64,000 nt of DNA, taken from NCBI GenBank assembly GCA_041748075.1, contig JBGTDX010000118.1, forward strand, positions 66,730 to 130,729, read 5' to 3'. This DNA is from Thermoanaerobaculia bacterium. GTDB taxonomy: Bacteria; Acidobacteriota; Thermoanaerobaculia; Gp7-AA8. Position 1 is the stretch's first letter. Every line of letters begins with the position of its first letter. This document shows, in pieces, positions 17,737-64,000 of the stretch. Under the pieces are notes generated by a model, which searched no databases, was not told where the DNA came from, and was given only the letters and a program-made list of their open reading frames with translations. The translations under genes were made by a program, and so were the position numbers.

Positions 17737-17804
17737 CGTTTCGTCACGCTTGAGCGTCTGAGCTGTTATAGCCGAGCCACATGATCGATCGAGAGAAAAC
17801 ATTC

Positions 17805-20252: not shown

Positions 20253-20263
20253 CCAGCCAGCTC

Positions 20264-20737: not shown

Positions 20738-20742
20738 AACTG

Positions 20743-21324
20743 ATGCCTGAAACTCGACGTGACGGTTGTGGGTTGTGGGTTGTGGGTTGTGGGACCGCCC
20801 GGACCCCACACAAACCCCAACTCACAACTCACAACTCACAACTCACAACCGGCCGGGCGGCGGCACCCACAACCCACAACCCACAACCCACAACCGGTCG
20901 GGCGGCCGGCTTCACCCTCATCGAGCTTCTCGTGGTCGTCACCATCGTCGGACTGCTCGCGGGCATCGCCGTCGTCAACGTCCTCGGGGCGCAGCGGAAG
21001 GCGGCGGAGAACGTGCTGAAAGCGGATCTCGCCCTGATGCGTCAGGGCATCGACAACTTCTACGCCGACAAACAGCGGTATCCCTCATCGCTCGAAGAGC
21101 TCGTCGAGGCGAAGTACATGCGCAGGATCCCCGTCGATCCGATCACGAAATCGGCCGACACATGGATCCCTGTCACCGAGGAAGTCGAGTTCGATGGAGG
21201 CGGCTTCGGGGGCAGTTTCGGCAGTGATTTCGATTATGACGCGCCCACGGGCCCCGGCATCGCCGACGTGAAGAGCGGCGCCGAGGGAGAAACCCTCGAT
21301 GGCGTGCCGTACGGGGAACTGTAA
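20743..21324 (+). CDS. GspG-like pseudopilin (pilin 2) with an unusually long, repeat-encoded leader. Start uncertain (ATG 20731 or 20743, or TTG/GTG 20770/20779).
   Basis: ORF track frame 20611..21324. Mature start ...TTGRAAG|FTLIELLVVVTIVGLLAGIAV at nt about 20908. There is no start codon between the repeat hairpin and the cleavage site, so the leader (about 40-56 aa) reads ...TTHNSQLTT...PTTHNPQPTT through the heptamer arrays. Confidence 0.55.
   Translation: MPETRRDGCGLWVVGCGTARTPHKPQLTTHNSQLTTGRAAAPTTHNPQPTTGRAAGFTLIELLVVVTIVGLLAGIAVVNVLGAQRKAAENVLKADLALMRQGIDNFYADKQRYPSSLEELVEAKYMRRIPVDPITKSADTWIPVTEEVEFDGGGFGGSFGSDFDYDAPTGPGIADVKSGAEGETLDGVPYGEL
20765..20894. repeat. Inverted arrays of heptanucleotide tandem repeats: (GTTGTGG)x4 ... 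(AACTCAC)x4 ... (CCCACAA)x4, forming an imperfect about 40-bp stem hairpin.
   Basis: Arrays seen at 20765-20792, 20819-20846 and 20866-20893. The flanking gaccgcccggacc / ggccgggcggc are also complementary. The whole structure is in-frame inside the leader of pilin 2. Confidence 0.9.
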
Positions 21325-47216: not shown

Positions 47217-49859
47217 CTACGTACCGCGGACGATGCGGGGTGTGATGAAAATCAACAGCTCGTCGTGGCGCCGCCCAATTTCTCTGTTTTTGAAAAGATG
47301 TCCCAGGACAGGAATCTGATGAATGATCGGGACACGGTTTTCGGAGTCGTTATCCGTCGACTGATAGATGCCGCCGATGACGGCTGTTCCGCCGTCGCGG
47401 ACCATCAGCCGCGTCTGAGCTCTCCGGGTGATGAGCGGCACATTCTCGCCGCCCGTGATCCCGAGCGCTGTGGCCGGCTCTACCTTCTGTACCTCGATGA
47501 TCATGATCACGGTGTTCTCCGCTGTGATCTGCGGCGTGACGCTCAGCCGGAGCGTCGCGTCAACGAAGGCTACGGTCGTCGTGAAGTTCACCCGTGTCTG
47601 GAAGGGAATCTGAATACCGCTCTGAATCTCGGCCTGGGCGTTGTCCTGCGTCGCGATCCGCGGCGCGGAGATCACGCGCGCCAGACCCTCGTTCTCCGCC
47701 GCTGCAAGCAACAGATCGAGATCAAACGTTCCGAGAACATTCGAAAGACTGATGTCGAACACCGTACGTCCGATCGCGAGATCGAACACAGAGCCCGGTC
47801 CTCCCACGCCTGTGTTGATCCGGTTCGGCCACTGGAGTCCGGTCCCGGTTCCCAGTGCCGGGTCCAGATCCGCGTTGAATCCGAGCGAGAAGCCGAACTG
47901 CCTGGAGAACGTCTTGGTCGTCTCCACGATGCGCGCTTCGATGATCACCTGTGGCGTCGGGATGTCGACCGTATCGACCATGTTGAGCATCAGCCGCAAC
48001 GCTTCCGGGATATCGGTGATGATGATCTGATTGGTGCGCGCGTCGACGATGATCTTTCCGCGAGGCGAGGCAAGCTGCGTGAGCAGCGTAGATATCTCTC
48101 CTGCTTTCGCGTACGAAAGCCGGCGCGCCACCGAGGTGGTCGGTACGTTGAGCCGCTTCTCTTCTTCACGGCGGCGTGTCGCCGCCTGCTCGGTGGCCAG
48201 GCGGTCGACCGTACCGATCCGCATGACGTTGCCTTCGAGATCGTAGGCCAGGCCGTTCTGCTTGAGGATCAGCTCGAGCGCCTGGTCCCACGGCACATCG
48301 GTGAACTCCACGCTGACCGTCCCGGTAACCTGCGGGTCGATCGCGATGTTCAGTCCCGTGAGCTGCGCGAAGGTGCGCAGGACGTCCTTGATGTCCGCAT
48401 CCTTGAGGGTCAGGCTCAGTGGCTCACCCGTGTAGACCCGCTCCTCGGTGCTGAGAGTCCGGCTCGTGCCCGGAGCGATGCCACCGCTCAGGTCGATCAT
48501 CGGCCCGACTCTCGTGATGGGAGGTTCGATGAATACGTCTTCCACGGGCGACACGCGCGCGGTCGACTCCGGCAGCGTTGCCGTGGCCGTCGACCGTGGC
48601 CCTGACTGCGGCGCCGGGCTGTTCACTACGTGCGTGGTCACTGGTCGAAACTCCGGTTCCACCCGGGCCGGGGGCGGCGGAACCACGAAGGCCACGGATG
48701 GCGCCTCTTCTTCGAAAATGTTCCGCTCGTCCTGCGTTGAAGCCATCTTTACGACAGGCTCGGCCACGACCGGCTCGACCTCCGCAGGGAGCGACCGTGC
48801 AGGTGCTGGCGGCGGCGCTTCAGACGCAACCCGTGTCGGCTCGCGCACGGGAACGGGGAGAGCCGGTGGAGGCATCTCCTCGGCTTGGGCCGTCATACTC
48901 GGGGGAGCGGGGTCCGAATAGGCCTCACGGGCGACCGGCTCGCTCGACTGCGCGAGTGCCGCTGGCGGGACAGACCTCGCCCGGCCAAACGTAACGCGAA
49001 GAGATCGTCCGTCTCTGACAATGTCGTACTCGATCAATTCATCGAGGTCCACAACGATTCGAGTGATGGCTTCCGGGGTCAGCTGGAACTGCGAGACTCG
49101 GATCTGCCGAACGCTCGCGGCGGCAACCTGGAAATTTTTTTGGCGGACGTGATTCGTGACCCCCTTGAGATCGACGACCAGACGGAGAGGGTTCGCCAGA
49201 CGGAAAGTCGTGTATTCCACTCGGCCGTCCGTCTCGAGCACGACCTCGCTTCCGGACGAACTTACATTCCGCAGTCTTCTGGCCGGAGGGTAATCCGATC
49301 GGAAATCACTCGAGGCCGGCGCTGCTGTCGCGACCACAGGTGTCTCACGAATGTCGGATACAGAAACGACATCCTCCGGCGGAGGGAGCACTTCCGGAGC
49401 GTCGAAATCTTCGACGCTCGCCATGAGGGGTTCCGAGAAATCGATCACCACCCTGCCGTCGACCGTCGAGGCCGTGGCGGACATGGGCGACGTGAAACGA
49501 ACCGTAACGCGAGTGAGCGGCCGGCCGAGCTCTATGGCCTCGTCCGCCGCGACGGATGCGACGTAAGACGGCAGATTCGTGGGCAGAACCAAACCGTAAG
49601 CCTTGGTCGTCCGCGGAAGGTCCAGCACGAAAACATCGGGCTGCGGACTGTACGAGGTGTACGTGGGCGCTCCCGTAGTTTGCAGGACCAGCCGCGGTGC
49701 AGGGAGTGCCTCGGCGCGGAGAGCATCGAGCGTCGCCCGCCCCCCGTTTTCCGCACTCGGAACCGCGGATCCGGCCTGCACCTCCGACGGATTTCCCGAC
49801 GCGCAGGCAACTGCCAGGACCAGCACGCTTCCCATGACGAGCAGACGCAGCGTTTTCAT
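47217..49859 (-). CDS. pilQ: Type IV pilus secretin PilQ (AMIN domains plus secretin).
   Basis: Signal MKTLRLLVMGSVLVLAVACAS. N-terminal AMIN-like repeats. Secretin core ...VETTKTFSRQFGF...NEGLARVISAPRIATQDNAQAEIQSGIQIPF...IPVLGHLF...LLIFITPRIV. Confidence 0.85.
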   Translation of the reverse strand: MKTLRLLVMGSVLVLAVACASGNPSEVQAGSAVPSAENGGRATLDALRAEALPAPRLVLQTTGAPTYTSYSPQPDVFVLDLPRTTKAYGLVLPTNLPSYVASVAADEAIELGRPLTRVTVRFTSPMSATASTVDGRVVIDFSEPLMASVEDFDAPEVLPPPEDVVSVSDIRETPVVATAAPASSDFRSDYPPARRLRNVSSSGSEVVLETDGRVEYTTFRLANPLRLVVDLKGVTNHVRQKNFQVAAASVRQIRVSQFQLTPEAITRIVVDLDELIEYDIVRDGRSLRVTFGRARSVPPAALAQSSEPVAREAYSDPAPPSMTAQAEEMPPPALPVPVREPTRVASEAPPPAPARSLPAEVEPVVAEPVVKMASTQDERNIFEEEAPSVAFVVPPPPARVEPEFRPVTTHVVNSPAPQSGPRSTATATLPESTARVSPVEDVFIEPPITRVGPMIDLSGGIAPGTSRTLSTEERVYTGEPLSLTLKDADIKDVLRTFAQLTGLNIAIDPQVTGTVSVEFTDVPWDQALELILKQNGLAYDLEGNVMRIGTVDRLATEQAATRRREEEKRLNVPTTSVARRLSYAKAGEISTLLTQLASPRGKIIVDARTNQIIITDIPEALRLMLNMVDTVDIPTPQVIIEARIVETTKTFSRQFGFSLGFNADLDPALGTGTGLQWPNRINTGVGGPGSVFDLAIGRTVFDISLSNVLGTFDLDLLLAAAENEGLARVISAPRIATQDNAQAEIQSGIQIPFQTRVNFTTTVAFVDATLRLSVTPQITAENTVIMIIEVQKVEPATALGITGGENVPLITRRAQTRLMVRDGGTAVIGGIYQSTDNDSENRVPIIHQIPVLGHLFKNREIGRRHDELLIFITPRIVRGT

Positions 49860-49954
49860 CATGCCTCCCACCATCCCATCACCATCACAACCCTCCACGT
49901 CACCCGTGGGCAGTATTCAAGCGATACTCGAGCGCCTGAGCGCACCTGTCCGGT

Positions 49955-50473
49955 TTAACGTCTGTTTGCCTCCGACTGCGGCGTGATGTCCTTGACGACC
50001 TCACGGAATCTTTCAATCCGCGTGGGGTCATTCACTTCCTGCCGGAACACGACCGAAAGCGGCGTGATCCGGATGACTTCACCGTCAAATACCTTGTCAC
50101 CAACCTTGATCAGGTATCCGTTGTTGTCCGGACCGTTGACCATCGCCACGAACCCTTCCCGCGTCCGGACAACCCCCGTAAGATCGAGCTCTTCGATGAG
50201 AAATCCAGCGGCTCCGGGAGGCGCATTCTCGCGGCTCATCTGTGGCGCGGGACCGACGAGCGATCGGAACGGATCCCTCCGTCCCTGCTGATCGTAGCGA
50301 TAGCTGTCTGCTGCGTCCGGATCTTCGAGGATCTCCTGAAGATCCTGCTGAAGCGTCTCATCGGGCGACTGACCCCGAGCAGGGGCGGGTGGCTGCTGCG
50401 CCACCGCGATCAGAGCGGTTGCCGCAATCAGAACCAGCACGAACAGAAGCTTCTTCTTGATCATCCCCATCAC
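49955..50473 (-). CDS. PilP (pilus assembly lipoprotein-like).
   Basis: Signal. YRYDQQGRRDPFRSL...GYLIKVGDKVFDGEVIRITPLSVVF is the PilP beta-domain pattern. Confidence 0.6.
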   Translation of the reverse strand: MMGMIKKKLLFVLVLIAATALIAVAQQPPAPARGQSPDETLQQDLQEILEDPDAADSYRYDQQGRRDPFRSLVGPAPQMSRENAPPGAAGFLIEELDLTGVVRTREGFVAMVNGPDNNGYLIKVGDKVFDGEVIRITPLSVVFRQEVNDPTRIERFREVVKDITPQSEANRR

Positions 50474-51091
50474 CTACTGAGCCCCGCCCGGCGTTCCGTC
50501 CGCCGTGTCCGGTTCGTTCTTCGGTTCAATATAGACGAATGTCTTCGCCACGAATTCACTCGTCACCGTACGTTCGGATTGTACTCCGAGTGCGTTGATC
50601 GAAAACTGCTCGACGTTCATGATGCGGGAGAAACTGCTCAGCCGATTGAACAGGATCGCAAGATTGTGGTAGCCGCCCTCGACCGCAATACTGATCGGCC
50701 ATTCGGAGTAGACCTCGCTTTCCTCGGAAGGAACGAGCGGCGGGAATGCGATCCGGCGGAGAGTGAAGTCTCCCTGATCGACCAGAGCCTTGATCTTCTT
50801 GATGATCTCTTCGGTGTTTCTGCTCGAGGGAAGAATGCGACGGAGCTTGTCCAGCTCGAGCTCGAGCCGTTTGACCTCCTCGCGGAACTGCGGAAGCTTC
50901 TTTTCGGCCGAGCGGCCCGCCTGGATCTTCTTGGCGAGCTCATCGAGCTCCGCGTCGACGGTCACGATCTCTGCATTGAGTGGCTTGATGAGAAAATAAT
51001 GCACGCCGAAGACGATCAGCGCCGCGAGGGCGAGTCCGATGAGCAGCCCGTAGTACCAGGGCTTTCCTTCCATTCCGAGCTCGAGGGCCAT
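50474..51091 (-). CDS. PilO.
   Basis: TM WYYGLLIGLALAALIVFGVHYFLI plus coiled coil. Sits between pilN and pilP. Confidence 0.65.
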   Translation of the reverse strand: MALELGMEGKPWYYGLLIGLALAALIVFGVHYFLIKPLNAEIVTVDAELDELAKKIQAGRSAEKKLPQFREEVKRLELELDKLRRILPSSRNTEEIIKKIKALVDQGDFTLRRIAFPPLVPSEESEVYSEWPISIAVEGGYHNLAILFNRLSSFSRIMNVEQFSINALGVQSERTVTSEFVAKTFVYIEPKNEPDTADGTPGGAQ

Positions 51092-51101
51092 CGGCTTTCC
51101 C

Positions 51102-51782
51102 CTATGTCCCCGCACCCGGAAGGGGCGCAGTAGCCGGTTGCGTGGATTCAACGGGAGTCACGGCGGGCTCACCCACGAGCTCAGTCGGCGCATAGGTGAA
51201 ATTGAACGTCATGCCCCAGCTATACACCGTCGTATTCCCCTCCTGGCCCGTGGTCACGGCGTCCACCACCGGCTCTTCGAAAGTGGGATCCGTCTTGATG
51301 TTCTCGACGTAATTTGCGATAGCGGTCGGATTGAGAGCCTTGCCCTGCATGGTCACCTGATTGCCAGAGAAGGTCATCGAAGTCAGCCAGACGAGGTCCG
51401 GAAGGAGCTGGCTGATCTTGTCCATGATCCGAACAGGGCCTTTCTGCCTCTGTTTGAGGTCGTTGATCAGATTGATTCTCTTTTCGAGGGAGTCCTTGCG
51501 TCTCTGGAACTGCTCGACCTCGGCGATGATCGATTCGAGCTGCTGGGCTTCCTGCCTGCGCTCAACCGCTTCGTCCTGCTTCGAGCCCAGCTCCCGGCTC
51601 TTGAGCAACCACCACCCGCCCGCCAGCAGAAGCCCTGCGACGATGAGCCCCACGATCAGCACGTTATTGATCTCCCGCGGCGCGGACATCGATGCGGAAC
51701 TGGCCATCGACGAACCGGACCGCGAGGGTCCCGTGTCGCGGGCTCCGGCGCGAGCCTCCCGGATCAGGTTGATCTTGATCAC
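51102..51782 (-). CDS. PilN.
   Basis: GTG start giving VIKINLIREA..., overlapping the pilM stop as GTGA. TM NVLIVGLIVAGLLLAGGWWLL. Confidence 0.7.
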   Translation of the reverse strand: MIKINLIREARAGARDTGPSRSGSSMASSASMSAPREINNVLIVGLIVAGLLLAGGWWLLKSRELGSKQDEAVERRQEAQQLESIIAEVEQFQRRKDSLEKRINLINDLKQRQKGPVRIMDKISQLLPDLVWLTSMTFSGNQVTMQGKALNPTAIANYVENIKTDPTFEEPVVDAVTTGQEGNTTVYSWGMTFNFTYAPTELVGEPAVTPVESTQPATAPLPGAGT

Positions 51783-52834
51783 GAGTCCCCCAGCTTTCTG
51801 ATGGCGAGTCCTACCGCCACGGCCATACTCGGCCCGACCTCGGAGATCCACTCGGGATTGAAGTCGCTCTCATTGATCGCGATATTGCGGAAAGGATTCA
51901 TAATCTCCACGGGGATGCCAAACTTTTCCCGCAGGATGGCATCGAGATTCAGCACTCCCGATCCGCCTCCCGCGATGACCACGTGCTCGACCCGTTCGGC
52001 TCCCGAAGTCGCCGCGAAGAAGTCGAGCGTCTTCCGCAACTCGGATGCGAAGTCCTCGGAAACCGAGTTCAGAATCGGGATCACCTGCTGAATGTTTCGA
52101 TCGGCGACCGACTCGCCCCGCTTGAGGCCTTCGGCCTGAGCAAACGAGAGGTTCAACTCGCGCTGAATGGCGTCCGTGTACTGGTTGCCGCCAAACGTGA
52201 TGTCCCGCCAGAAGAGCGATTCGCCACCCTGCATGACCGTGACGTTGGTCACCGAAGCCCCGATGTTCACAAGAGCCGTGACCTCACGGCCCACGATCGG
52301 ATAGTTCAGCTCATAGGCGTTCTGAAGGGCGAAGGCGTCCACATCCACGATCACCGACGACTTGCCGGTCTGGCTGATCACCGAGGTGTAATCGTTGATC
52401 TTTTCCTTCTTGACGGCCACCAGGATGACGTCGACGCTGTCGCCTCCCGAGCTCGGAAGCGGGACGTAGTCGAGGTTGACGTCATTGATATCGAAGGGGA
52501 TGTACTGCTCGGCTTCCCACTGGATCGACTCGGCGAGCTCCTCGCTGGACATGGAGGGCAGGGCGATTTTCTTGATGATGACCGAATGGCCGGACAGGGA
52601 AGTGGCAAAGCTGGAATTCTTCACTCCCTGGGCGGCGTTGAGGCGTTGGATGGTATCGACGACGAGCGAGGAATCCATGATGGATCCGTCGACGATGGCT
52701 TCCGGTGAGAGCGACTCGATGCCTATCTTGAGCAGCTGATAGGAACCAGCCTTCTTCTCCTTCAACTCCACGAGCTTCACCGCGGAGGATCCGATATCAA
52801 GACCAACTACATTTTTGCTCTTTGAGAAGAACAC
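51779..52834 (-). CDS. pilM: PilM (actin-like ATPase-fold pilus assembly protein).
   Basis: MFFSKSKNVVGLDIGSSAVKLVEL...; 351 aa. Confidence 0.9.
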   Translation of the reverse strand: MFFSKSKNVVGLDIGSSAVKLVELKEKKAGSYQLLKIGIESLSPEAIVDGSIMDSSLVVDTIQRLNAAQGVKNSSFATSLSGHSVIIKKIALPSMSSEELAESIQWEAEQYIPFDINDVNLDYVPLPSSGGDSVDVILVAVKKEKINDYTSVISQTGKSSVIVDVDAFALQNAYELNYPIVGREVTALVNIGASVTNVTVMQGGESLFWRDITFGGNQYTDAIQRELNLSFAQAEGLKRGESVADRNIQQVIPILNSVSEDFASELRKTLDFFAATSGAERVEHVVIAGGGSGVLNLDAILREKFGIPVEIMNPFRNIAINESDFNPEWISEVGPSMAVAVGLAIRKLGDS

Positions 52835-55865: not shown

Positions 55866-56636
55866 TTACGCGCTCGGAACGATCCAGCTGCGGCCATCCG
55901 CCGACTCGATGGCCTCGCCGCGAAAGCCGAAGTACTCGAGCATCACTTCGGGCCGCATCACGTCTCCGGGTGTTCCCTCCATCGCGAGCCTCCCCCTGCT
56001 CATGACCAGCATCCGGTCGGAACACGCCGCGCTCCAGTTCATATCGTGCGAGATGAAAACAACGGTGCATCCTTTCGAGTCGACGATCGATCGGAGCAGT
56101 TGCGAGAAGCGCTGCACGTGCTCGAGGTCGAGCGCTGCGAGCGGTTCATCGAGCAGAATCAGGCGCGGTTGGCCCGCGAGCACGCGGGCGAGAAACACCC
56201 GTTTCCTCTCGCCCCCGCTCATCTCCTCCAGGAGCCTGCCGGCGAGATGCGTGGCGTCGCAGTCGGCGAGTGCCTGCTCGGCGAGCTCGTAGTCTTCCCT
56301 CGATTCCCATTGGAACCGGCCGAGAAATGGTGCGCGCCCGGAAAGGACCACATCGATCGCCCGCATCGGCAGCAGCCACTCCGGTTCCTGAGGGAGATAC
56401 CCGGTCTGTCGGGCGAACTCGCGGCGATCCCACTCCCCGATCGGCTGGTCCAGAAAGCGGACTTCCCCCTGCTGCGGCGAGAGCACGCGCGCCATCAGTT
56501 TCATCAGCGTCGACTTGCCTGAACCGTTCGGCCCGGTCAGCGAGATCAGCTCTCCTTCGCCGAAACGGGTCGTCACCGAGTCGAGGCCGCCTACGCCCCT
56601 CGCATACGAAAATCCGACAGCTCGGAGGTCCATCAT
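55866..56636 (-). CDS. ABC transporter ATP-binding protein (FecE/BtuD-type importer).
   Basis: Walker A GPNGSGKST, signature LSGGERKRV, Walker B LILLDEP. Confidence 0.85.
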   Translation of the reverse strand: MMDLRAVGFSYARGVGGLDSVTTRFGEGELISLTGPNGSGKSTLMKLMARVLSPQQGEVRFLDQPIGEWDRREFARQTGYLPQEPEWLLPMRAIDVVLSGRAPFLGRFQWESREDYELAEQALADCDATHLAGRLLEEMSGGERKRVFLARVLAGQPRLILLDEPLAALDLEHVQRFSQLLRSIVDSKGCTVVFISHDMNWSAACSDRMLVMSRGRLAMEGTPGDVMRPEVMLEYFGFRGEAIESADGRSWIVPSA

Positions 56637-57634
56637 CGAGAGAGTCTCCGCAGCAGCACGAAAAAGAAGGGTACGCCGAGTAGCGCCGTGAGTGCCCCGA
56701 TGGGGAGCTCACCCGGCGCCATGATCGAGCGCGAGAGCGCATCGGCGAGCACGAGCAGCGTGCCACCACCCAGCGCCGCCAGCGGGAGCAGCACCCGGTA
56801 ATCGTGCTTCCAGATCATGCGGATCGCATGCGGCACGAGCAGCCCGACGAAACCGATGATGCCGCTCACGGATACCGCGGCTCCCGTCGCCAGGGACGAC
56901 ACGAGAAACACCATCAGGATCACAGGGGTCGTGTTGACTCCGCGCGATCGCGCATCGTCCTCGCCGAACGCCATGAGTCGCAACTCGCCGCTGAGGGCAA
57001 CCAGGGCGACCAGGCTGAATGCGAGCACCGCGGACAACATCGCCACATCACTCCACGAGGCGCTGAAGAACGTCCCCATCATCCACCGCAACGCCGCCGA
57101 CAGATCACTTCCCGCCGTCAGCGAGAGGGCCAGCAGTATCAGCGCCGAAAAAAATGCATTCAACACGAGACCCGCCAGCAACAGCCTCGATGGATCGAGC
57201 GTCAACTCTCTTCGGGCAAGCATCAGTACTGCGACCATCGCAACGCAGGCGCCGCCGAATGCCACCACCGGGATCACGCCAGGATACCGGGCGAGTCCCA
57301 GCGCCGTGGCCACGGCGGCGCCGCACGCCGCGCCTCCGGATACTCCGAGAATGAACGGGTCTGCCAGCGGATTCCGCAGTAGCGTCTGAAATGTCAAACC
57401 CGTCACCGCCAATATGGCTCCCACCAGCGCCGCGAGAAGCACGCGGGGCAGACGGATCGTGAGAAAGATCGTCTCCGCAATCGGATCTCTCGCGATGAGC
57501 GCGGCGAGAGATACCCGGGCCGCACCCAATTGCGTGGCGAGCGCAATGGCAAGGACCAGCGCCAATCCCAGGATCAGCACACCGTTCCAAAGCGCGCGCC
57601 TGGCGCCCGTATCGCTCAACGCATACGTTCCCAT
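56633..57634 (-). CDS. FecCD-family ABC importer permease (iron-siderophore / cobalamin type).
   Basis: About 10 TM helices. FecCD-type GVSGGAACGAA and IGFVGLLVPH blocks. Confidence 0.85.
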   Translation of the reverse strand: MGTYALSDTGARRALWNGVLILGLALVLAIALATQLGAARVSLAALIARDPIAETIFLTIRLPRVLLAALVGAILAVTGLTFQTLLRNPLADPFILGVSGGAACGAAVATALGLARYPGVIPVVAFGGACVAMVAVLMLARRELTLDPSRLLLAGLVLNAFFSALILLALSLTAGSDLSAALRWMMGTFFSASWSDVAMLSAVLAFSLVALVALSGELRLMAFGEDDARSRGVNTTPVILMVFLVSSLATGAAVSVSGIIGFVGLLVPHAIRMIWKHDYRVLLPLAALGGGTLLVLADALSRSIMAPGELPIGALTALLGVPFFFVLLRRLSR

Positions 57635-58473
57635 TCGTCGACGATCCTGTTGATAGCCGCAGCCGCTTCCGGCAGCCGGGGGCCCGGTCGCATGAACAGA
57701 TCCTCGTCCACTGAATGCGCCGTGACGGGTCTCCCCTCGCGGCGGGCGTTCAGCAGCGTCACGAGAGCGTCGGGAGGCGCAGCCCTGCCCGGATAAAAAA
57801 TCATATCCGGGGGATTCGCAACGACGGCCTCCCTCGAATAAAGCGAGCGCTGGTTGCCCGCGGCGGCCACATTCACAACCCCCGTGAGCGCGAGCAGATC
57901 CCCGAGATGCGTTTCAGGCACAGCGACGTACAGCGGATCGGGGAAGATGACGAAAAGGACGCGCGGTTTGCTGCCGCGCGTGCGTCGCTCCGCCTCCATT
58001 CTGCGCTCGAACTCCACACGAACATCGTTTGCACGCGGCGATCCGAGGATCTCGCCGATTCGCGAGATTGCGGGCGCGACCTCGTGCAGGCGGTCGGTAC
58101 GGACCGCATAGAGAGCGATGTCCATGGACTCGAGAGCCACAGCGAGCTGTGGATGCATCGCGCTGGTCGACGCGAGCACCAGGTCCGGATCGAGTTGCGC
58201 GATCCGCTCCCTGCTCGGCTCCATGCCTCCTACTTTCGGCAGTGCGGCAGCCTGGGGCGGAAAGTCCGAATAGTCATCGGTGCCGGCGAGCAGAGCCCCC
58301 GACCCGATCGCGTGCACGATCTCGGTTAGCGCGGGCGCAAGTGTAATCACCCGCGAGACCTGCTGAGGAAGAGCGACGCGCCGGCCCAGGTCGTCGACCG
58401 TCTCGCCGCTCCGGCGCTCGGTGCAGGAGGCGAGGAGCACCAGAAAAGGCGCGGCGATGCGTAGGAGTCGCAC
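57616..58473 (-). CDS. ABC importer periplasmic substrate-binding lipoprotein (BtuF/FhuD-like).
   Basis: GTG start. Lipobox LVLLASCT. RVITLAPALTEIV...DPDLVLAST pattern of class III substrate-binding proteins. Confidence 0.75.
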   Translation of the reverse strand: MRLLRIAAPFLVLLASCTERRSGETVDDLGRRVALPQQVSRVITLAPALTEIVHAIGSGALLAGTDDYSDFPPQAAALPKVGGMEPSRERIAQLDPDLVLASTSAMHPQLAVALESMDIALYAVRTDRLHEVAPAISRIGEILGSPRANDVRVEFERRMEAERRTRGSKPRVLFVIFPDPLYVAVPETHLGDLLALTGVVNVAAAGNQRSLYSREAVVANPPDMIFYPGRAAPPDALVTLLNARREGRPVTAHSVDEDLFMRPGPRLPEAAAAINRIVDEWERMR

Positions 58474-58481
58474 GATTGTTC

Positions 58482-58725
58482 CTAGTGTCCCGAGCTACCT
58501 AACCGGCGCTGGGCGCCGGTGAAGGGGTGATGAACCACCGTGTCATGCTGAGCGAGGTCACGTCATCCTGAGCGAAGCGAAGGATGACACATCGGTAGGT
58601 TTCCGCGACAGGGTTCCTTACAAGCGGCTGAATGACAATCCCGTCATTGCGGGCGAGCGATGAACCAGGCGTCATCCTGAGAGACTGTGAATTAATTGGA
58701 CAGAAGTGTCATCCCGATCCTCTGG
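58482..58725. repeat. Cluster of degenerate R1-family palindromic units (gtcatgctgagcgaggtcacgtcatcctgagcgaagcgaaggatgac ...; gtcatcctgagag...gtgtcatcccg) plus a conserved about 50-nt element shared with 3062-3112.
   Basis: Seen directly. Lies in the 5' region of the ABC substrate-binding gene. Confidence 0.6.
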
Positions 58726-58755
58726 AAAGCAATCGGAAACCGCAGGATCGCGACT

Positions 58756-58986
58756 TCAGCCCTGTTCACCAGTTTCGTCGTCGAGATCGTTCGGAATGCC
58801 GAGACGGTTGCACGCAGCCTCGTACATCTGCCTGGAGGCATTGATCGCATTCTGCAGATCGGCAATTCTGTCTTTCACCTTCGAGAGCTCTTCCTCTATC
58901 TGGACCTGAAGATCACCAATCTCCTGTTTGGTCACCTGGAGCGTCGTCTCGTAGAACTTTCGTTGCTGGTCGGTCAGCACCGCCAT
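58756..58986 (-). CDS. Hypothetical small coiled-coil protein (76 aa).
   Basis: ORF only; heptad-like LQVTKQEIGDLQVQIEEELSKVKDRIADLQNAI. Confidence 0.3.
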   Translation of the reverse strand: MAVLTDQQRKFYETTLQVTKQEIGDLQVQIEEELSKVKDRIADLQNAINASRQMYEAACNRLGIPNDLDDETGEQG

Positions 58987-59035
58987 GAAGTGAAACCTCC
59001 GATCGACAGCAGGTCCAGCCTGCTCTCTCGCGTGA

Positions 59036-61762
59036 TTATAGCTTGAACGGCACGGTGACGTTCTTATAGGCTTTCACGCGAACTCCGTTCACGGTGGCAG
59101 GCTTGAACGTGGATCGCCGGACGGCGTCGAGCGCCGCCTCGTTGATACCGACGTTCTGTGCAACACCACGGAGAACCCGCACATCGAGAACTTTGCCATC
59201 TTCGGAGACGAGCGCAGAGACGATCACGACACCCTCGACCTTGTGCATTTTGGCCATCGGCGGGTATGGCGGTCTGTACTGCTTGATGACAGCTGCCTGT
59301 ACCAGGCCGGGCGTGCTCGCATCGACCAGGTCTCCCTGCCGGACCGGAACGGGGGCGGCAACCGGCGTCGCCTGCGCGACCGCGGGAGTCTGCACCGGCG
59401 TCGGCACCGGAGTCGAGACCGGCACCACTGGAGGAGGCGCAGGCGTCGCTTCGATGACCGGGGTTGCAACAGGAACCGCGGTCTGAGTGAGCTCAGGCGC
59501 CTGCACGGCCGAGGCGGCCGTCGGAACTGCCGCCGGCTGTTTCTGCGGACGACTGGCGGCCAACTGCAGTGCACGCTGATTCTCGAGGCGCAGCCCCTCG
59601 GCTTCGAGTCTTCGCTGGACTTCCTGATCGACGCGTGCCTGATCGCTTCCGTCGATGACAGTCGGGTCGACTGTTTCGCTCACGGGGAGTGCTTCACCCC
59701 CTGAAACGAGCGGCGCCTGATTCGCGGGAACCGGCACCGTCCGCTGCACCGGCGCCGCAGTCGAGGCCATCAGCGCCGGGGTCTGGTCATTGCTCCGTCC
59801 ATTCCAGACGATGTACGAAGCCGTGGCCGCGGTGGTAATCAGCAGAAGAATTCCAGCGGCTATCGGGACGATTCCGAACCTTCTTTTCTTTGCGGGCTCC
59901 GAAGCGGTGAACATCACCGGTGTCGCTATTGCCGGCTGGGGCTGGGGCTCGGGCTCGGGTTCAGCAGTGATTGCGGGCTCGGCCACAAGCTCGGACGGCA
60001 TTTCAATGTCCGCGGTTTCCTGAATCGATTCGACCGGGGTCAGGCCCGCATCACCGGCTTCAGACAATGGATCCGGCTCGTCTGCAACAGCAGGGTCGGC
60101 CACGCTCACCGAATCGGGGGTGTAGAGATGATGCATGTAGATCGCGACATCGGCGTTCGTCGGCGTCGGCCAGAAGTTGTAGACGATCGCATCGAGATCC
60201 TTCACGAGCTCGCCGGCGGTCTGGTACCGGGAAGACGGCTCTCCCTGGAGCGCCTTCATGACGATCGCATCGATTTCGGGGGTGACATCTTCATTGAGCG
60301 TCGAAGGGGCCACGACGCGAGCCTGACGCACCTGCTCGAGGACCGACAGCTCGTTCTCGCCGACGAAGAGCTTGCGGCCCGTGAGAAGCTCGAACAACAC
60401 CGTGCCGAGAGCAAAGATGTCGGATCGCCGATCGATCCGGCGTCCCCACGCCTGTTCGGGCGACATGTACTGCAGCTTGCCTTTGAGCGCACCGGAAAGC
60501 GTGTGAGAGGCCTTCGACGCCGCCTTCGCAATACCGAAGTCGCAGAGTTTGATGTCCCCTTCGTAGGAGATCAGGACATTCTGAGGGGAGACGTCGCGAT
60601 GGACCAGCTCCATCTCCTTCTCATCGAAGTCGCGTTTGCGATGCGCATAGTCGAGTGCTGCCGCCGTTTTCGAAGCGATGAAGAGCGCCAGTTCCACCGG
60701 AAGTCTCTGGTCGCGCTCCTCGGCGGTATTCATGATCGACTTCAGGTCATGACCGTCGATGTACTCCATCGCAATGTAGTAAGACTTGGCGATCCGGCCC
60801 AGATCGTAAATGTGAATGATGTTGCTGTGATTGAGCTGTGCCGCGAGCTTGGCTTCGTCCACGAACATCTCGACGAAGTCGGAGTTGTCGGACAGGTGCG
60901 GAAGAATCTTCTTGATAGCGACGATCTTCTGGAAGCCCTCGACTCCGCGCATCCGCGCCTTCCAGACTTCGGCCATACCGCCACTCGCGATCTTTTCGAG
61001 GAGCACGTACTGGCCGAAGCGGATTCCGTCGGAGGTGTCATCATCGTGGCGTTCCTCAGCGGAACCATCTTCGGGCAACGCAGCTGTATGAAAAGCGGAT
61101 GCATCCTCTGCGCGCCGCTTCTCCAGCCCAGAGAGTGTGTCCTCGAGCAGCTTGTCGAGGTCGACCAGCTGCGAGCCGGGCTTCGTCTCGACCGGTTCGT
61201 CCGTGGCCGGTTTGCGCGTGAGAGGAATCCGGACGCCCGCAAGGGTGTCTGCAACCATCTTGTCCACGTCCTCGAACGTGCTTCGAGATTTTTTCTTTGC
61301 GGCGCTCACAGCCTGCTGCCCGGCAGCGACCTTCAACTGGCGATCGAGCTCTTCTCCGATGTCGGCCGAAGTCCATCCGCTGCCGCCGCGGTCGAGACCG
61401 AGCATCTCCTGTACTTTTCCGAAGAATTCAGTTTCCGAATAAGGCTTGGGCAGCAGATCCGACGCTCCCAGCCGCACGGCGTCCGCCTTGGGCGTCTTGC
61501 CGTTGTAGCCGGAGATGGTGACGAGGATCGGCGTCGCGGCGGCCGCGGGTCGGTTTCGGATCTGGCGAATGAGATCGCCTGTGCTTATTCTCGGAAGGAT
61601 GGACGACAGAACGATGAGGCGGGGAGATGCCGTGTCGAGAGCCTTGAGTGCTTCCTCGCCATCGCGGGCGAAGATGGGGGTGACGGGGTGGGACGAAACA
61701 GCCTGTCTGATCCGGTCGATGTAACGCGGTTCATACTCTACGACCAGAATCTGTTCAGCCAT
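59036..61762 (-). CDS. Multidomain fusion: N-terminal receiver (REC) domain, Hanks-type Ser/Thr protein kinase, TM helix, Pro/Ala-rich linker, and TonB C-terminal domain.
   Basis: Kinase: GQYVLLEKIASGGMAEVWKA (Gly loop), VAIKK, HRDVSPQNVLI, DFGIAKA, SPEQAWG. TM FGIVPIAAGILLLITTAATASYIVW. Linker PAPPPVVPVSTPVPTPVQTPAV. TonB_C-like ...QYRPPYPPMAKMHKVEGVVIVSALVSEDGKVLDVRVLRG...AALDAVRRSTFKPATVNG. REC details are in the fusion-protein finding. Confidence 0.8.
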   Translation of the reverse strand: MAEQILVVEYEPRYIDRIRQAVSSHPVTPIFARDGEEALKALDTASPRLIVLSSILPRISTGDLIRQIRNRPAAAATPILVTISGYNGKTPKADAVRLGASDLLPKPYSETEFFGKVQEMLGLDRGGSGWTSADIGEELDRQLKVAAGQQAVSAAKKKSRSTFEDVDKMVADTLAGVRIPLTRKPATDEPVETKPGSQLVDLDKLLEDTLSGLEKRRAEDASAFHTAALPEDGSAEERHDDDTSDGIRFGQYVLLEKIASGGMAEVWKARMRGVEGFQKIVAIKKILPHLSDNSDFVEMFVDEAKLAAQLNHSNIIHIYDLGRIAKSYYIAMEYIDGHDLKSIMNTAEERDQRLPVELALFIASKTAAALDYAHRKRDFDEKEMELVHRDVSPQNVLISYEGDIKLCDFGIAKAASKASHTLSGALKGKLQYMSPEQAWGRRIDRRSDIFALGTVLFELLTGRKLFVGENELSVLEQVRQARVVAPSTLNEDVTPEIDAIVMKALQGEPSSRYQTAGELVKDLDAIVYNFWPTPTNADVAIYMHHLYTPDSVSVADPAVADEPDPLSEAGDAGLTPVESIQETADIEMPSELVAEPAITAEPEPEPQPQPAIATPVMFTASEPAKKRRFGIVPIAAGILLLITTAATASYIVWNGRSNDQTPALMASTAAPVQRTVPVPANQAPLVSGGEALPVSETVDPTVIDGSDQARVDQEVQRRLEAEGLRLENQRALQLAASRPQKQPAAVPTAASAVQAPELTQTAVPVATPVIEATPAPPPVVPVSTPVPTPVQTPAVAQATPVAAPVPVRQGDLVDASTPGLVQAAVIKQYRPPYPPMAKMHKVEGVVIVSALVSEDGKVLDVRVLRGVAQNVGINEAALDAVRRSTFKPATVNGVRVKAYKNVTVPFKL

Positions 61763-62225: not shown

Positions 62226-63590
62226 ATGACACCACCAGAAAATCGACCACCGCGTAGGCGTCGCAGGCGCAGGCGTCGCGCCCCGGGTAATTCCGCCGGC
62301 GCGCCGGGTTCCGGCAACGCCGCCACGACAGCCTCTCCTCAGGAAGACCAGGCTTCCCGGCCTCAACCGGAAGGTCGTGCGCGAGGGAACGCTCCCAGGA
62401 AAAAACGTTCGCGGAGTCGCGGGGGCCGTTCCCGCGAGAGCGAATCGATGCAGGACAGCTCCAGTCAGCCCGACAGCGGTCCGACCGGGGAGCTCGTTCC
62501 GGCCAGCGGCGTTCTTCACATCAAACCCAACGGAAACGGCGTGCTCGTCAACGCGGGGAACAATTACGTCATTCAGCCGGGCGACCCGCTGGTGCCGAGG
62601 GGTACAATCGAGAAACTGCACCTTCAGCCGGGCCTGCAGCTCACGGGCACGGCAAGACGGACGCACAACGGTCTCGAACTGATCGGGCTGGAACAGATCG
62701 AAGGGATGGCGGTCGACGACTTCCGCGAATCGCGCCATCCGTTCTCCGAGCTGATCTCGATCGATCCGAACGAGATGTTCAAGCTCGAGACCGAACCGGA
62801 TCGCCTGACCACACGGGTGCTCGATCTGTTTGCGCCGCTCGGCAAAGGGCAGCGCTGCCTCATCGTCGCACCGCCAAAGACGGGAAAGACGACCCTGCTG
62901 AAGGACATCGCGCACGGGATCAACGTCAATCACCCTGACGTGATCCTCATGGTGCTCCTCGTGGACGAGAGACCGGAAGAGGTCACCGACTTCCGGCGCT
63001 CGGTAGCTCAGGGCGAAGTGATCGCGTCGAGCTCCGACGAGACCGCAGAGAACCACATCATGATCGCTGAGGTCGTACTCGAGCGGGCGCGACGGCTGGT
63101 CGAGATGAAGAAGGATGTCGTCATTCTCTGTGACTCGATCACCCGAATGTCCCGGGCGTACAATAATGAGCAGCGCGGGAGCGGGAAGATCCTCTCCGGC
63201 GGCATCGACGCCCGAACCATGGAAAAGCCACGGCGATTCTTCGGCGCGGCCCGGAACGCCGAAGACTGGGGCTCCCTGACGATCGTTGCCACCGCGCTGG
63301 TCGACACGGGATCCCGAATGGACGAGGTCATCTTCCAGGAGTTCAAGGGAACGGGAAACACCGAGATCGTACTGGACCGCGGGCTGTTCGAAAGGCGTAT
63401 ATTTCCGGCGATGAACATCGCGCAGACCGGCACCCGGAAAGAGGAGAAGCTGCTCGATCCGGAAGTGTTACCGAAAGTTCACACACTGAGGCGGGCGCTG
63501 GCGGGAACGGATGCCACGACAGCGATGAAAATGCTGCTCGAGAAGCTCCAGAAGTTCAAGTCGAATGAAGCGTTTCTGAAGAGCTTCTGA
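62226..63590 (+). CDS. rho: Transcription termination factor Rho with an Arg-rich low-complexity N-terminal extension.
   Basis: CSD-like VLHIKPNGNGVLV...YVIQPGDPLV; Q/R loops; Walker A APPKTGKTTLL. N-terminal PRRRRRRRRRAPG... Alternative start at ATG 62448. Confidence 0.9.
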   Translation: MTPPENRPPRRRRRRRRRAPGNSAGAPGSGNAATTASPQEDQASRPQPEGRARGNAPRKKRSRSRGGRSRESESMQDSSSQPDSGPTGELVPASGVLHIKPNGNGVLVNAGNNYVIQPGDPLVPRGTIEKLHLQPGLQLTGTARRTHNGLELIGLEQIEGMAVDDFRESRHPFSELISIDPNEMFKLETEPDRLTTRVLDLFAPLGKGQRCLIVAPPKTGKTTLLKDIAHGINVNHPDVILMVLLVDERPEEVTDFRRSVAQGEVIASSSDETAENHIMIAEVVLERARRLVEMKKDVVILCDSITRMSRAYNNEQRGSGKILSGGIDARTMEKPRRFFGAARNAEDWGSLTIVATALVDTGSRMDEVIFQEFKGTGNTEIVLDRGLFERRIFPAMNIAQTGTRKEEKLLDPEVLPKVHTLRRALAGTDATTAMKMLLEKLQKFKSNEAFLKSF

Positions 63591-63793: not shown

Positions 63794-64000
63794 CATGTTT
63801 GCTCGTATACGAACCATCGCATTAATCACGATGTGCAGCGCATTGCTCGCCTTGGGCGCGTTTGCCCAGACGTCATCGACGACGGGCGAAATCAACGGAA
63901 GCGTCACCGATAGCGGGGGCTCCGCGCTGCCAGGTGTGACGGTAACGGCGAGGAATGTCGCGACTGGGTTGACCCGCACGACATATACCGAAAGCGGTGG
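63794..64000 (+). CDS. TonB-dependent receptor-like outer-membrane protein, N-terminus only (signal peptide plus carboxypeptidase-regulatory-like domain); 3'-partial at the window edge.
   Basis: MFARIRTIALITMCSALLALGAFAQTSSTTGEINGSVTDSGGSALPGVTVTARNVATGLTRTTYTESGG. GGGGGA Shine-Dalgarno. No stop before the window end, so it is absent from the ORF track. Confidence 0.55.

What the first reader, a model, noticed from the sequence alone, without database searches (positions are those of the whole stretch)
59036..61762. Receiver - Ser/Thr kinase - TM - TonB C-terminal domain fusion protein next to an iron/B12-type ABC importer
One 908-aa protein combines:
- a phosphoacceptor-type receiver domain, with no DNA-binding output;
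- a complete Hanks kinase domain;
- one TM helix;
- a Pro/Ala/Val-rich periplasm-spanning linker typical of TonB;
- a TonB_C-like domain.
It lies upstream of, and co-oriented with, btuF/fecCDE-like genes and relA. No exbBD are in the window. It could couple outer-membrane receptor contact (TonB box binding) to cytoplasmic Ser/Thr phosphorylation, a TonB-like signalling device rather than an energy transducer.
Basis: partly seen in the sequence, partly recalled or inferred. Interest (0 to 1): 0.7.

Follow-up and report, generated by a model that had tools for sequence, protein, structure and literature searches.

The report
Kinase fused to TonB-like sensor domain
An uncultured soil-type bacterium (class Thermoanaerobaculia) encodes a conserved membrane protein that joins a degenerate receiver domain and a Ser/Thr kinase inside the cell to a TonB-type outer-membrane-contact domain outside it; it always sits next to a tiny helical partner gene and usually next to an iron/B12-type importer, so it looks like an uncharacterised way of signalling across the cell envelope and not an ordinary TonB.

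Summary
The 908-aa ORF (59036-61762, minus strand) is intact. It has four parts: a receiver fold, a Hanks kinase, one TM helix, and a Pro/Ala-rich spacer ending in a canonical TonB_C domain. It is not a one-off. At least 119 full-length homologues share the architecture, and more than 450 species-level genomes, almost all Thermoanaerobaculia/Acidobacteriota MAGs, encode a relative.

- The receiver is a pseudo-receiver. The phosphoacceptor Asp is an invariant Ser (119/119) and is never Asp in the wider family.
- The kinase catalytic-loop Lys is an invariant Ser (HRDVSPQN).

Two additions:
- A 76-aa single-helix protein (58756-58986) follows the gene in 72/72 loci.
- A TBDT-like gene starts at the window's right edge.

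The Peripla_BP_2/FecCD/ABC importer follows in 47/58 loci. relA linkage is not conserved.

The TM helix lacks the His found in canonical TonBs of the same phylum (0/119 versus 5/5). It also lacks their post-TM strand motif. ExbBD is absent from the window.

Best reading (about 0.45): a receptor kinase that uses TonB_C as its periplasmic sensor and is not an energy transducer. No experiments or literature on it were found.

The parts
59036..61762 (-). Whole gene: 908-aa pseudo-receiver / Hanks kinase / TM / spacer / TonB_C protein
   Evidence: The ORF is intact. A 100%-identical database protein (P0001) and 119 colinear homologues exist.
61397..61762 (-). Pseudo-receiver domain (residues 1-122). 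It has the CheY fold, with Ser53 in place of the phosphoacceptor Asp and Glu9-Tyr10 in place of Asp-Asp. Thr82 and Lys106 are kept.
   Evidence: Pfam Response_reg 38.4 bits. CheY alignment. S53, T82 and K106 are invariant in 119/119. The wider family has S/N/T/C/A at this position, never D. AF2 pLDDT is about 90, and Foldseek matches receiver domains at TMt 0.86-0.89.
61028..61396 (-). Cytoplasmic linker (residues 123-245) with two copies of a conserved D-x-D-K-x-x-x-D-T-L-x-G motif (residues 165-176 and 201-213)
   Evidence: Near-invariant columns D165, D167, K168, D172, T173, L174, G176 and D203, D208, T209, L210, S211, G212. The same two-fold motif is visible in divergent L082.
60128..61027 (-). 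Hanks-type Ser/Thr kinase domain plus a conserved C-terminal tail (residues 246-545). The catalytic loop is HRDVSPQN.
   Evidence: Pkinase 1e-40. PknB at 1e-45. K284, E303, HRD388-390, N395 and DFG408-410 are invariant in 119/119; S392 is invariant. The family always has Ser, while other kinases in the same loci have Lys.
59810..59878 (-). Single transmembrane helix (residues about 629-651), preceded by KKRR
   Evidence: Kyte-Doolittle scan. A single strong hydrophobic segment is found at this position in every member. Conservation is 0.48 and no member has a TM His (0/119).
59555..59650 (-). Conserved periplasmic alpha-helix (residues 705-736), rich in E/R/A/Q
   Evidence: AF2 helix 705-736. 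Column conservation is 0.70, against about 0.4 in the flanking spacer.
59288..59554 (-). Pro/Ala/Val/Thr-rich periplasm-spanning spacer (residues 737-825)
   Evidence: Composition. Family-wide TM-to-YP distance has a median of 172 residues, range 161-193.
59039..59287 (-). TonB_C domain (residues 826-908) with the invariant YP motif and a conserved last beta-strand
   Evidence: PF03544 53 bits and TIGR01352 51 bits. It matches solved TonB C-terminal domains 5lw8, 2k9k, 6i97 and 2gsk. AF2 pLDDT is about 97. Y833, P834 and F906 are invariant.
58756..58986 (-). orf76: a conserved 76-aa cytoplasmic protein, one long alpha-helix plus an acidic tail. It is the obligate neighbour and the proposed partner or substrate.
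   Evidence: It lies directly downstream in 72/72 loci, with a median gap of 43 bp. There are 1080 homologues, all about 76 aa. A GGAGG Shine-Dalgarno sits 8 nt before the ATG. AF2 predicts a helix over residues 6-62 at pLDDT about 95. It has no Pfam or NCBIfam family.
57616..58473 (-). Periplasmic binding lipoprotein (Peripla_BP_2 / TroA-like; BtuF/IsdE-like)
   Evidence: Pfam. NCBIfam TroA_like is above its cut-off; BtuF and IsdE are below theirs. Lipobox LLASC.
56633..57634 (-). FecCD/BtuC-type ABC permease
   Evidence: PF01032 279 bits; BtuC/FhuB-like.
55866..56636 (-). ABC ATPase (heme/FecE/corrinoid-type)
   Evidence: PF00005; NCBIfam. The three importer genes follow co-oriented in 47/58 loci.
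63795..64000 (+). N-terminus (signal peptide plus start of a CarboxypepD_reg domain) of a TBDT-like outer-membrane protein, cut by the window end. It is a candidate outer-membrane partner only.
   Evidence: Translation of the window edge, plus tblastn of the L001 CarboxypepD_reg+OMP_b-brl_4 protein. A homologue lies beyond rho in 24 loci.

Best explanation
This is a bitopic receptor-type Ser/Thr kinase whose periplasmic sensor is a TonB C-terminal domain.

Shown:
- A pseudo-receiver and a Hanks kinase come before the single TM helix.
- After the TM helix come a spacer of about 170 residues (a conserved helix plus a Pro-rich stretch) and a canonical TonB_C domain.
- The gene forms a conserved unit with a 76-aa single-helix protein, and usually with a Peripla_BP_2/FecCD/ABC importer.

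Inferred:
- The receiver and kinase are cytoplasmic and TonB_C is periplasmic.
- TonB_C docks by beta-strand pairing onto a TonB-box-like strand that an outer-membrane transporter exposes when it is loaded with ligand (corrinoid, heme or siderophore). The CarboxypepD_reg-type barrel encoded beyond rho is a candidate.
- Docking changes the oligomeric or conformational state through the periplasmic helix and the TM helix.
- This switches on trans-autophosphorylation of the activation loop (invariant S416, S419, T421).
- The kinase then phosphorylates the 76-aa partner (invariant T5, T15, T19) and/or other targets, adjusting uptake through the adjacent ABC importer.
- The pseudo-receiver cannot take part in His-Asp phosphotransfer. 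It most likely acts as an intramolecular regulatory or dimerisation module.
- The protein is not driven by ExbBD. Canonical TonB does the energy transduction.
For: - Architecture and residue conservation.
- The kinase is PknB-like, with all catalytic residues except the loop Lys.
- TonB_C is canonical by sequence and by model.
- Motor-coupling features are absent. No TM His in 0/119 and TM conservation of 0.48. The D-box pattern occurs in 9/119, against 15% in shuffles, and the KVYVVQQ motif in 0/119. Five canonical TonBs of the same phylum have both features. The D-box and SHLS definitions come from PMC10907165.
- No ExbB/ExbD lies in the window or in 77/82 loci. Where ExbB-ExbD-ExbD is adjacent, it comes with its own canonical TonB.
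- TonB_C occupies the extracytoplasmic sensor position in BlaR1-type M56 proteins and in an independent kinase-3xTonB_C fusion. This parallels the kinase-TM-sensor layout of PknB.
- Synteny: orf76 in 72/72 loci and the importer in 47/58, retained even where the flanks (rho, relA) differ.
Against: - There is no experimental data on any member, and no paper was found.
- TonB-box binding, kinase activity and orf76 phosphorylation are all inferred.
- The invariant Lys-to-Ser change in the catalytic loop could lower or alter catalysis.
- E. coli TonB His20 can reportedly be replaced by Asn (my recollection of the literature, not checked here), so absence of His does not exclude ExbB coupling.
- The D-box is a degenerate motif.
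- The TBDT-like gene is separated from the kinase gene by rho and sits on the other strand, so its linkage may be coincidental.
- The kinase N-lobe of the AF2 model has low confidence.
Confidence: 0.45

Rival explanations
1. It is a genuine energy-transducing TonB dedicated to the adjacent importer. It is energised by an ExbBD complex encoded elsewhere. The cytoplasmic pseudo-receiver and kinase act as an add-on that regulates the transducer or reports on it.
For: - The TonB_C domain and Pro-rich spacer are canonical.
- tonB genes classically sit next to FecCD-type importers, and this link holds in 47/58 loci.
- In a divergent subgroup the gene lies 2-4 kb from exbB-exbD-exbD.
Against: - The TM helix is poorly conserved and has no His in 0/119 members. 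The post-TM strand motif of same-phylum TonBs is absent.
- No ExbBD lies within +/-10 kb in the main clade.
- Where ExbBD is adjacent, a separate canonical TonB accompanies it.
- The kinase (0.92) and receiver (0.88) are the most conserved parts, more than TonB_C (0.76) and the TM helix (0.48). Selection therefore acts mainly on the cytoplasmic signalling module.
Confidence: 0.2
2. It is a TolA/GltG-like envelope tether. The TM helix, periplasmic helix, spacer and TonB_C physically connect the inner membrane to an outer-membrane or peptidoglycan partner. The kinase controls or senses envelope integrity, or localises signalling. Nutrient sensing is not involved.
For: - The modular layout (single TM, periplasmic helical segment, TonB_C) matches the description of GltG/GltJ as TolA/TonB-like proteins (PMC5349195).
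- TonB-like proteins with non-transport roles exist, such as Anabaena SjdR and TonB2 (PMC8262864 listed; PMC8597729).
Against: - The strong and deep linkage is to a type II ABC importer, not to Tol-Pal, gliding or division genes.
- No TolQR/AglRQS-type motor genes are adjacent in the main clade.
Confidence: 0.15
3. The kinase is catalytically weak or dead because the catalytic-loop Lys is Ser. The protein then works as a scaffold or pseudokinase: occupancy of TonB_C alters binding of orf76 or other partners without any phosphotransfer.
For: S392 replaces the conserved Lys in every member (83/83 in the loci), while other kinases in the same genomes keep Lys. The receiver is already degenerate.
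Against: All other catalytic residues (K284, E303, D390, N395, D408) and the activation-loop Ser/Thr are invariant. Pseudokinases do not usually show that pattern.
Confidence: 0.1

Closest known systems
TonB (ExbB-ExbD-TonB energy transducer; PF03544 / TIGR01352)
   Same: It shares the C-terminal TonB_C domain with the YP motif and a conserved terminal strand, a Pro-rich periplasm-spanning spacer, a single TM helix with the C-terminus outside, and a position next to a FecCD-type importer.
   Different: The TM helix is internal, coming after about 625 cytoplasmic residues. It has no TM His/SHLS-type signature and no post-TM D-box-like strand. No exbBD lies nearby in the main clade. It carries a cytoplasmic pseudo-receiver and a kinase.
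Receptor-type Hanks kinases such as M. tuberculosis PknB / PASTA kinases
   Same: The layout is kinase domain, linker, single TM, extracytoplasmic sensor. The kinase domain aligns to PknB at 1e-45, and T421 aligns with PknB T171.
   Different: The sensor is TonB_C instead of PASTA. An N-terminal pseudo-receiver is added. The catalytic-loop Lys is Ser, and there is an 8-residue insertion before HRD.
BlaR1-type Peptidase_M56 proteins fused to TonB_C (for example B. thetaiotaomicron TonB1/TonB10)
   Same: A membrane signal-transduction module carries TonB_C in the extracytoplasmic sensor position. These proteins are known only from bioinformatics. [quoted passage not shown] They are seen here with 3-6 TonB_C repeats.
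   Different: The cytoplasm-facing effector is a metalloprotease, not a kinase. These proteins have several TM helices and often tandem TonB_C domains.
FecA-FecR-FecI cell-surface signalling
   Same: The proposed logic is the same: the ligand occupancy of an outer-membrane transporter is relayed across the periplasm by a bitopic inner-membrane protein to a cytoplasmic output.
   Different: No STN signalling domain, FecR-type anti-sigma factor or ECF sigma factor was seen here. The contact module would be TonB_C and a TonB box, and the output would be Ser/Thr phosphorylation.
Myxococcus GltG/GltJ (TolA/TonB-like proteins of the gliding machinery)
   Same: Single TM helix, periplasmic helical segment and TonB_C motif (PMC5349195). 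I recall that GltJ also has cytoplasmic N-terminal domains; I did not check this.
   Different: They are coupled to the AglRQS motor, have no kinase, and sit in a different genomic context.
Pseudo-receiver domains (for example FrzS, KaiA, plant PRRs; named from my own knowledge)
   Same: CheY fold without a functional phosphoacceptor Asp.
   Different: Here the Asp position is an invariant Ser, and the domain is covalently linked to a Ser/Thr kinase.

Membership tests
TonB energy transducer | C-terminal TonB_C domain with the YP motif | tested here: met
   PF03544 53 bits (cut-off 24.6) and TIGR01352 51 bits. PDB TonB C-terminal domains at E 8.5e-7. Y833-P834 are invariant.
TonB energy transducer | Pro-rich periplasm-spanning linker | tested here: met
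   The window protein has A 18%, P 16% and V 16% over residues 661-825. The family spacer has a median of 172 residues, with A 22%, P 16%, T 14%.
TonB energy transducer | N-terminal TM anchor with a conserved His (SHLS-type signature) that contacts ExbB | tested here: not met
   The TM helix is internal (residues 629-651). No member has a TM His (0/119), and conservation is 0.48. Canonical TonBs of the same phylum have a TM His in 5/5 cases.
TonB energy transducer | Post-TM D-box strand that binds ExbD (PMC10907165) | tested here: not met
   The strict pattern occurs in 2/119 and the loose pattern in 9/119, against 15% in shuffles. The phylum-specific KVYVVQQxRF motif occurs in 0/119. The motif is degenerate, so this is a soft negative.
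TonB energy transducer | Genetic association with exbB-exbD | tested here: not met
   None was found in the window. It is present only in 5/82 loci of a divergent subgroup, and there it is accompanied by its own canonical tonB.
TonB energy transducer | PMF-dependent energisation of TBDT transport | not testable with these tools
   This needs genetics or biochemistry.
Hanks-type Ser/Thr protein kinase | Gly-rich loop, VAIK Lys, alphaC Glu, HRD Asp, catalytic Asn, DFG, (A/S)PE | tested here: met
   GGMAEV, K284, E303, H388-R389-D390, N395, D408-F409-G410 and S434-P435-E436 are present. K284, E303, HRD, N395, DFG and P435-E436 were tabulated at 119/119. G261-G262-M263-A264-E265-V266 are in the invariant-column list. 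Pkinase 140 bits.
Hanks-type Ser/Thr protein kinase | Catalytic-loop Lys (HRDxKxxN) | tested here: not met
   S392 is invariant. PknB HRDVKPAN aligns with HRDVSPQN.
Hanks-type Ser/Thr protein kinase | Phosphotransfer activity | not testable with these tools
   This needs an in vitro kinase assay.
Response-regulator receiver (CheY-like) | (beta-alpha)5 fold | tested here: met
   AF2 gives five strand-helix units at pLDDT about 90. Foldseek matches receiver domains at TMt 0.86-0.89 and rmsd about 2 A.
Response-regulator receiver (CheY-like) | Phosphoacceptor Asp at the end of beta3 | tested here: not met
   Ser53. It is invariant in 119/119. The wider family has S 62, N 6, T 2, C 2, A 1, plus one Y that appears to be a misaligned or truncated ORF (L070) and one gap; D is never seen.
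Response-regulator receiver (CheY-like) | Acidic Asp-Asp pair that binds Mg2+ | tested here: not met
   The pair is Glu9-Tyr10 in 118/119.
Response-regulator receiver (CheY-like) | Conserved Thr/Ser (beta4) and Lys (beta5) | tested here: met
   T82 and K106 are invariant in 119/119.
FecR/FecA-type cell-surface signalling | TBDT with an STN signalling domain, a FecR-type anti-sigma factor and an ECF sigma factor | tested here: not met
   No FecR or ECF sigma domain appeared in any scanned ORF of the window. An STN domain occurs only in the PilQ-type secretin.

The most novel reading that the evidence does not exclude
Thermoanaerobaculia have a third kind of cell-surface signalling. The TonB box exposed by a ligand-loaded outer-membrane transporter is read directly by a TonB_C 'sensor' and converted into Ser/Thr phosphorylation. 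The phosphoacceptor would be the obligate 76-aa helical partner, or possibly the invariant Ser53 at the old Asp site of the protein's own pseudo-receiver. In the second case a Hanks kinase would have taken over a receiver switch.
Probability: 0.3. Interest if true: 0.8.

Novelty: new variant of a known kind. Interest (0 to 1): 0.6.

Why it matters
TonB C-terminal domains are understood almost only as the force-transmitting end of the Ton motor. This family is conserved in hundreds of species. In it, the same domain is wired to a eukaryote-like kinase and has lost the motor-coupling signatures.

If the domain reads TonB-box exposure, that would be a new way for a diderm cell to learn that its outer-membrane transporters are loaded, independent of anti-sigma/ECF systems.

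It would also give a function to the many 'TonB family proteins' that carry extra domains. PMC10350073 states that these have not been functionally characterised.

Finally, it offers a defined kinase and small-partner pair for study in a phylum with almost no genetics.

Tried and rejected
- **Cobalamin or other riboswitch upstream of the importer:** none at Rfam gathering thresholds in the window, and only chance-level hits in 58350-59150.
- **Fur box:** no match with up to 3 mismatches.
- **Operator-like repeat in the orf76-PBP spacer:** the CGTCATCCTGAGCGA repeat is not conserved at that position in relatives (2/63). It recurs in other intergenic regions of the window, so it is a dispersed REP-like repeat.
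- **Promoter/terminator scan:** nothing above shuffle expectation.
- **relA and rho as part of the module:** rejected. relA is downstream in only 3 loci, and rho is upstream in 30/64.
- **Word-indexed homologue search with TonB_C alone:** returned only 8 fragments. It was replaced by the exhaustive search.
- **Contig look-up for the identical protein P0001:** failed, so the sequence beyond the window edge could not be read.
- **Foldseek of the full-length model:** swamped by kinase and receiver hits, so it gave no structural confirmation for TonB_C. Sequence matches to PDB TonB C-terminal domains were used instead.
- **orf76 family assignment:** no Pfam or NCBIfam family. JGI's 'ElaB/YqjD/DUF883' label rests on a sub-threshold similarity (Pfam E = 0.098), and orf76 has no TM anchor.
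- **Fold search for orf76:** not run, because a single helix is uninformative.
- **Ser53 as a universally conserved phosphosite:** weakened. The wider family has N, C or A at that position.
- **Literature searches for kinase-TonB_C fusions, for Thermoanaerobaculia TonB with kinase, and for the HRDVSP motif:** nothing relevant was found.
Full report
**Observation.** The window holds an uninterrupted 908-codon ORF on the minus strand at 59036-61762.
- Pfam places Response_reg at residues 5-116 (38.4 bits, cut-off 30.2), Pkinase at 252-514 (140 bits) and TonB_C at 830-908 (53 bits, cut-off 24.6). NCBIfam agrees: PknB-like kinase and tonB_Cterm.
- A hydropathy scan finds one TM segment at about residues 629-651, preceded by KKRR. 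The segment between it and TonB_C is rich in Ala, Pro and Val.
- The gene is not an assembly or frameshift artefact. The protein database holds an identical sequence, and at least 119 colinear homologues of 896-999 aa carry the same four Pfam hits. All come from Thermoanaerobaculia/Acidobacteriota metagenome-assembled genomes, mostly annotated 'TonB family protein'.
- A scan of species-representative genomes found at least 453 genomes that encode a relative. The search patterns were kinase motifs, so I verified the full architecture only for the best 80.

**Corrections to the observation.**
- The receiver is not of the phosphoacceptor type. BLASTP against CheY aligns Asp57 with Ser53. In the 119-sequence alignment Ser53 is invariant, the Asp-Asp pair is Glu9-Tyr10 (118/119), and Thr82 and Lys106 are invariant.
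- In 75 more divergent loci the same column reads S 62, N 6, T 2, C 2 and A 1, plus one Y from an apparently misaligned or truncated ORF (L070) and one gap. It is never Asp.
- The fold is real. AF2 pLDDT is about 90, and Foldseek matches receiver domains with TM-scores of 0.86-0.89. It is a conserved pseudo-receiver.
- The kinase aligns to M. tuberculosis PknB at E = 1e-45. It keeps the Gly loop, K284, E303, HRD, N395, DFG and SPE in all members. T421 aligns with the PknB activation-loop phosphosite T171.
- The catalytic-loop Lys is an invariant Ser (HRDVSPQN versus PknB HRDVKPAN), and 8 residues are inserted before HRD. Other kinases in the same genomes keep the Lys. The Ser is therefore a family signature whose catalytic consequence is unknown.

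- *A small conserved gene.* Between the gene and the binding-protein gene lies a 76-aa ORF (58756-58986, minus strand) with a GGAGG Shine-Dalgarno 8 nt upstream of its ATG.
  - It is present directly downstream, with a median gap of 43 bp, in 72 of 72 related loci that have enough sequence. That includes loci where the receiver is only about 40% identical.
  - Its family has 1080 database members, all about 76 aa, with no Pfam or NCBIfam assignment.
  - AF2 predicts one long helix over residues 6-62 (pLDDT about 95) followed by an acidic tail.
  - T5, T15, T19, Y12, Y55 and C59 are invariant among 45 close homologues.
- *An outer-membrane gene at the window edge.* Beyond the divergent rho gene, positions 63795-64000 (+) encode a signal peptide and the start of a CarboxypepD_reg domain. 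This matches the CarboxypepD_reg+OMP_b-brl_4 (TBDT-like) gene found beyond rho in 24 related loci.

**Context.**
- Downstream genes are a Peripla_BP_2 lipoprotein (TroA-like; BtuF/IsdE-like below cut-off), a FecCD/BtuC permease, an ABC ATPase and RelA/SpoT, followed by pilMNOPQ.
- The three importer genes follow co-oriented in 47 of 58 loci. Most of the remaining loci keep at least the binding protein.
- rho is upstream in 30/64 loci, and relA is downstream in only 3.
- The conserved unit is therefore kinase-TonB_C plus orf76, usually followed by the importer. relA is not part of it.
- No riboswitch, Fur box or conserved operator was found.
- The window has no ExbB, ExbD, second TonB_C or Plug/TonB_dep_Rec domain in about 50 scanned ORFs or by tblastn.

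**Is it a TonB?**
- The C-terminal domain is. It matches solved TonB C-terminal domains (H. pylori 5lw8, Vibrio TonB2 2k9k, P. aeruginosa 6i97, E. coli 2gsk). It has the invariant YP motif and a conserved final strand. AF2 models it at pLDDT about 97.
- The parts of TonB that couple it to the motor are missing.
  - The TM helix is the least conserved structured element (0.48, against 0.92 for the kinase, 0.88 for the receiver and 0.76 for TonB_C). It contains no His in any of 119 members.
  - A divergent subgroup of the family (L071, L075, L076, L077, L082) happens to lie 2-4 kb from a canonical exbB-exbD-exbD-tonB operon. Those five 237-243-aa TonBs all have a TM His. They also have a conserved K(V/I)(Y/F)VVQQxRF(K/R)PPPP strand just after the TM helix, at the position of the ExbD-binding D-box described in PMC10907165.
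  - The kinase family has neither feature. The D-box regex is at or below shuffle frequency, and the VVQ motif occurs in 0/119.
- An exhaustive HMMER search shows that all single-domain hits of 47% identity or more are members or fragments of this family. Its TonB_C therefore forms its own clade.

**Why a sensor reading is preferred.**
- Other proteins with closely scoring TonB_C domains include many BlaR1-type Peptidase_M56 proteins with 3-6 TonB_C repeats. One independent fusion has an N-terminal kinase with the canonical Lys followed by three TonB_C domains. In both classes TonB_C occupies the position of the extracytoplasmic sensor domain, as the PASTA domains do in PknB.
- Two independent genomic associations place the family in the context of TonB-dependent uptake without making it the transducer. 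The main clade is linked to a type II ABC importer. The divergent clade is linked to a complete Ton motor that has its own TonB.
- I therefore favour, at about 0.45, a receptor kinase that reads exposure of a TonB-box-like strand on an outer-membrane protein and answers by Ser/Thr phosphorylation. orf76 is the likeliest partner or substrate, and the pseudo-receiver is a regulatory or dimerisation module.
- Every step after 'the domains are there and conserved' is inference.

**Rivals.**
- An ExbBD-energised TonB with a regulatory cytoplasmic add-on (0.2).
- A TolA/GltG-like tether with an attached kinase (0.15).
- A pseudokinase scaffold (0.1).

**Comparison with the known, and novelty.**
- Searches of the paper library found nothing on kinase-TonB_C fusions.
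- TonB-like proteins with non-transport roles exist: Anabaena SjdR/TonB2 and Myxococcus GltG/GltJ.
- The protein fails the membership tests for an energy-transducing TonB (TM His, D-box, exbBD linkage) and for a phosphorylatable receiver. It passes the Hanks kinase tests except for the loop Lys.
- I class it as a new variant of known kinds: a receptor-type Hanks kinase with an unprecedented sensor, or equally a TonB-like protein with a kinase. It is already present in databases but uncharacterised.
- Interest is 0.6. The architecture is widespread and clade-defining, and it suggests a testable new route of trans-envelope signalling, but the function is wholly inferred.

Noticed in passing
window 62226-62500 (+): The Rho homologue (454 aa) starts with an extension of about 90 residues that is Arg-rich and low in complexity (MTPPENRPPRRRRRRRRRAPGNSAG...). 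This comes before the Rho RNA-binding and ATPase domains. In related loci the called rho products are 382-387 aa.
   Followed up: no
window 58540-58717, also about 3060, 9969, 10043, 22109, 22183, 42619: A motif of about 15 nt, CGTCATCCTGAGCGA, occurs in 4-5 copies in both orientations in the orf76-PBP spacer. It also occurs in several other apparently intergenic spots of the window. It is not conserved at the same place in relatives (2/63 loci), so it looks like a genome-specific dispersed REP-like repeat.
   Followed up: partly
window 61127-61268 (-), protein residues 165-176 and 201-213: The receiver-kinase linker has two copies of a conserved motif, D-x-D-K-x-x-x-D-T-L-x-G (DVDKMVADTLAG and DLDKLLEDTLSG). 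The motif is also recognisable in the most divergent family members. It may be a docking or autophosphorylation site.
   Followed up: partly
L082 5837-8281 (-), and likewise L071, L075, L076, L077: In a divergent subgroup of the family the ABC importer is missing downstream. In 5 of its 8 loci a canonical exbB-exbD-exbD-tonB operon lies 2-4 kb upstream on the other strand; in L082 a RuvC-like ORF lies in between. The N-terminal receiver-like domain in this subgroup is even more degenerate (Asn at the Asp position), and the proteins reach 1000-1350 aa.
   Followed up: partly
proteins P0280, P0255, P0281, P0296, P0306, P0310, P0353, P0249, P0258: TonB_C occurs in tandem arrays of 3-6 copies. These arrays are fused to BlaR1-type Peptidase_M56, to CarboxypepD_reg, or to an N-terminal Hanks kinase with the canonical Lys (P0280). 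The last is a separate, independent kinase-TonB_C fusion.
   Followed up: partly
window 3380-21324 and 47217-52834: The window is dominated by type IV pilus / type II secretion genes. These include pilMNOPQ (47217-52834, -), T2SSF and T2SSE (12163-14992, +) and a second secretin with an N-terminal TPR (17781-20252, +). There are also several very large N_methyl pseudopilin-like proteins (1031 and 751 aa at 4493-9801).
   Followed up: no
window 10842-11360 (-): A PemK/MazF toxin domain occupies residues 66-166 of a 172-aa ORF, leaving an N-terminal extension of about 65 residues. No antitoxin was identified among the scanned neighbours.
   Followed up: no
window 60598-60621 (-), protein residues 381-388 region: The family has an insertion of about 8 residues (KRDFDEKE...) between helix alphaE and the HRD catalytic loop, relative to PknB. 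It is conserved in the family consensus (HRKKDFEEKEMGLVHRD).
   Followed up: no
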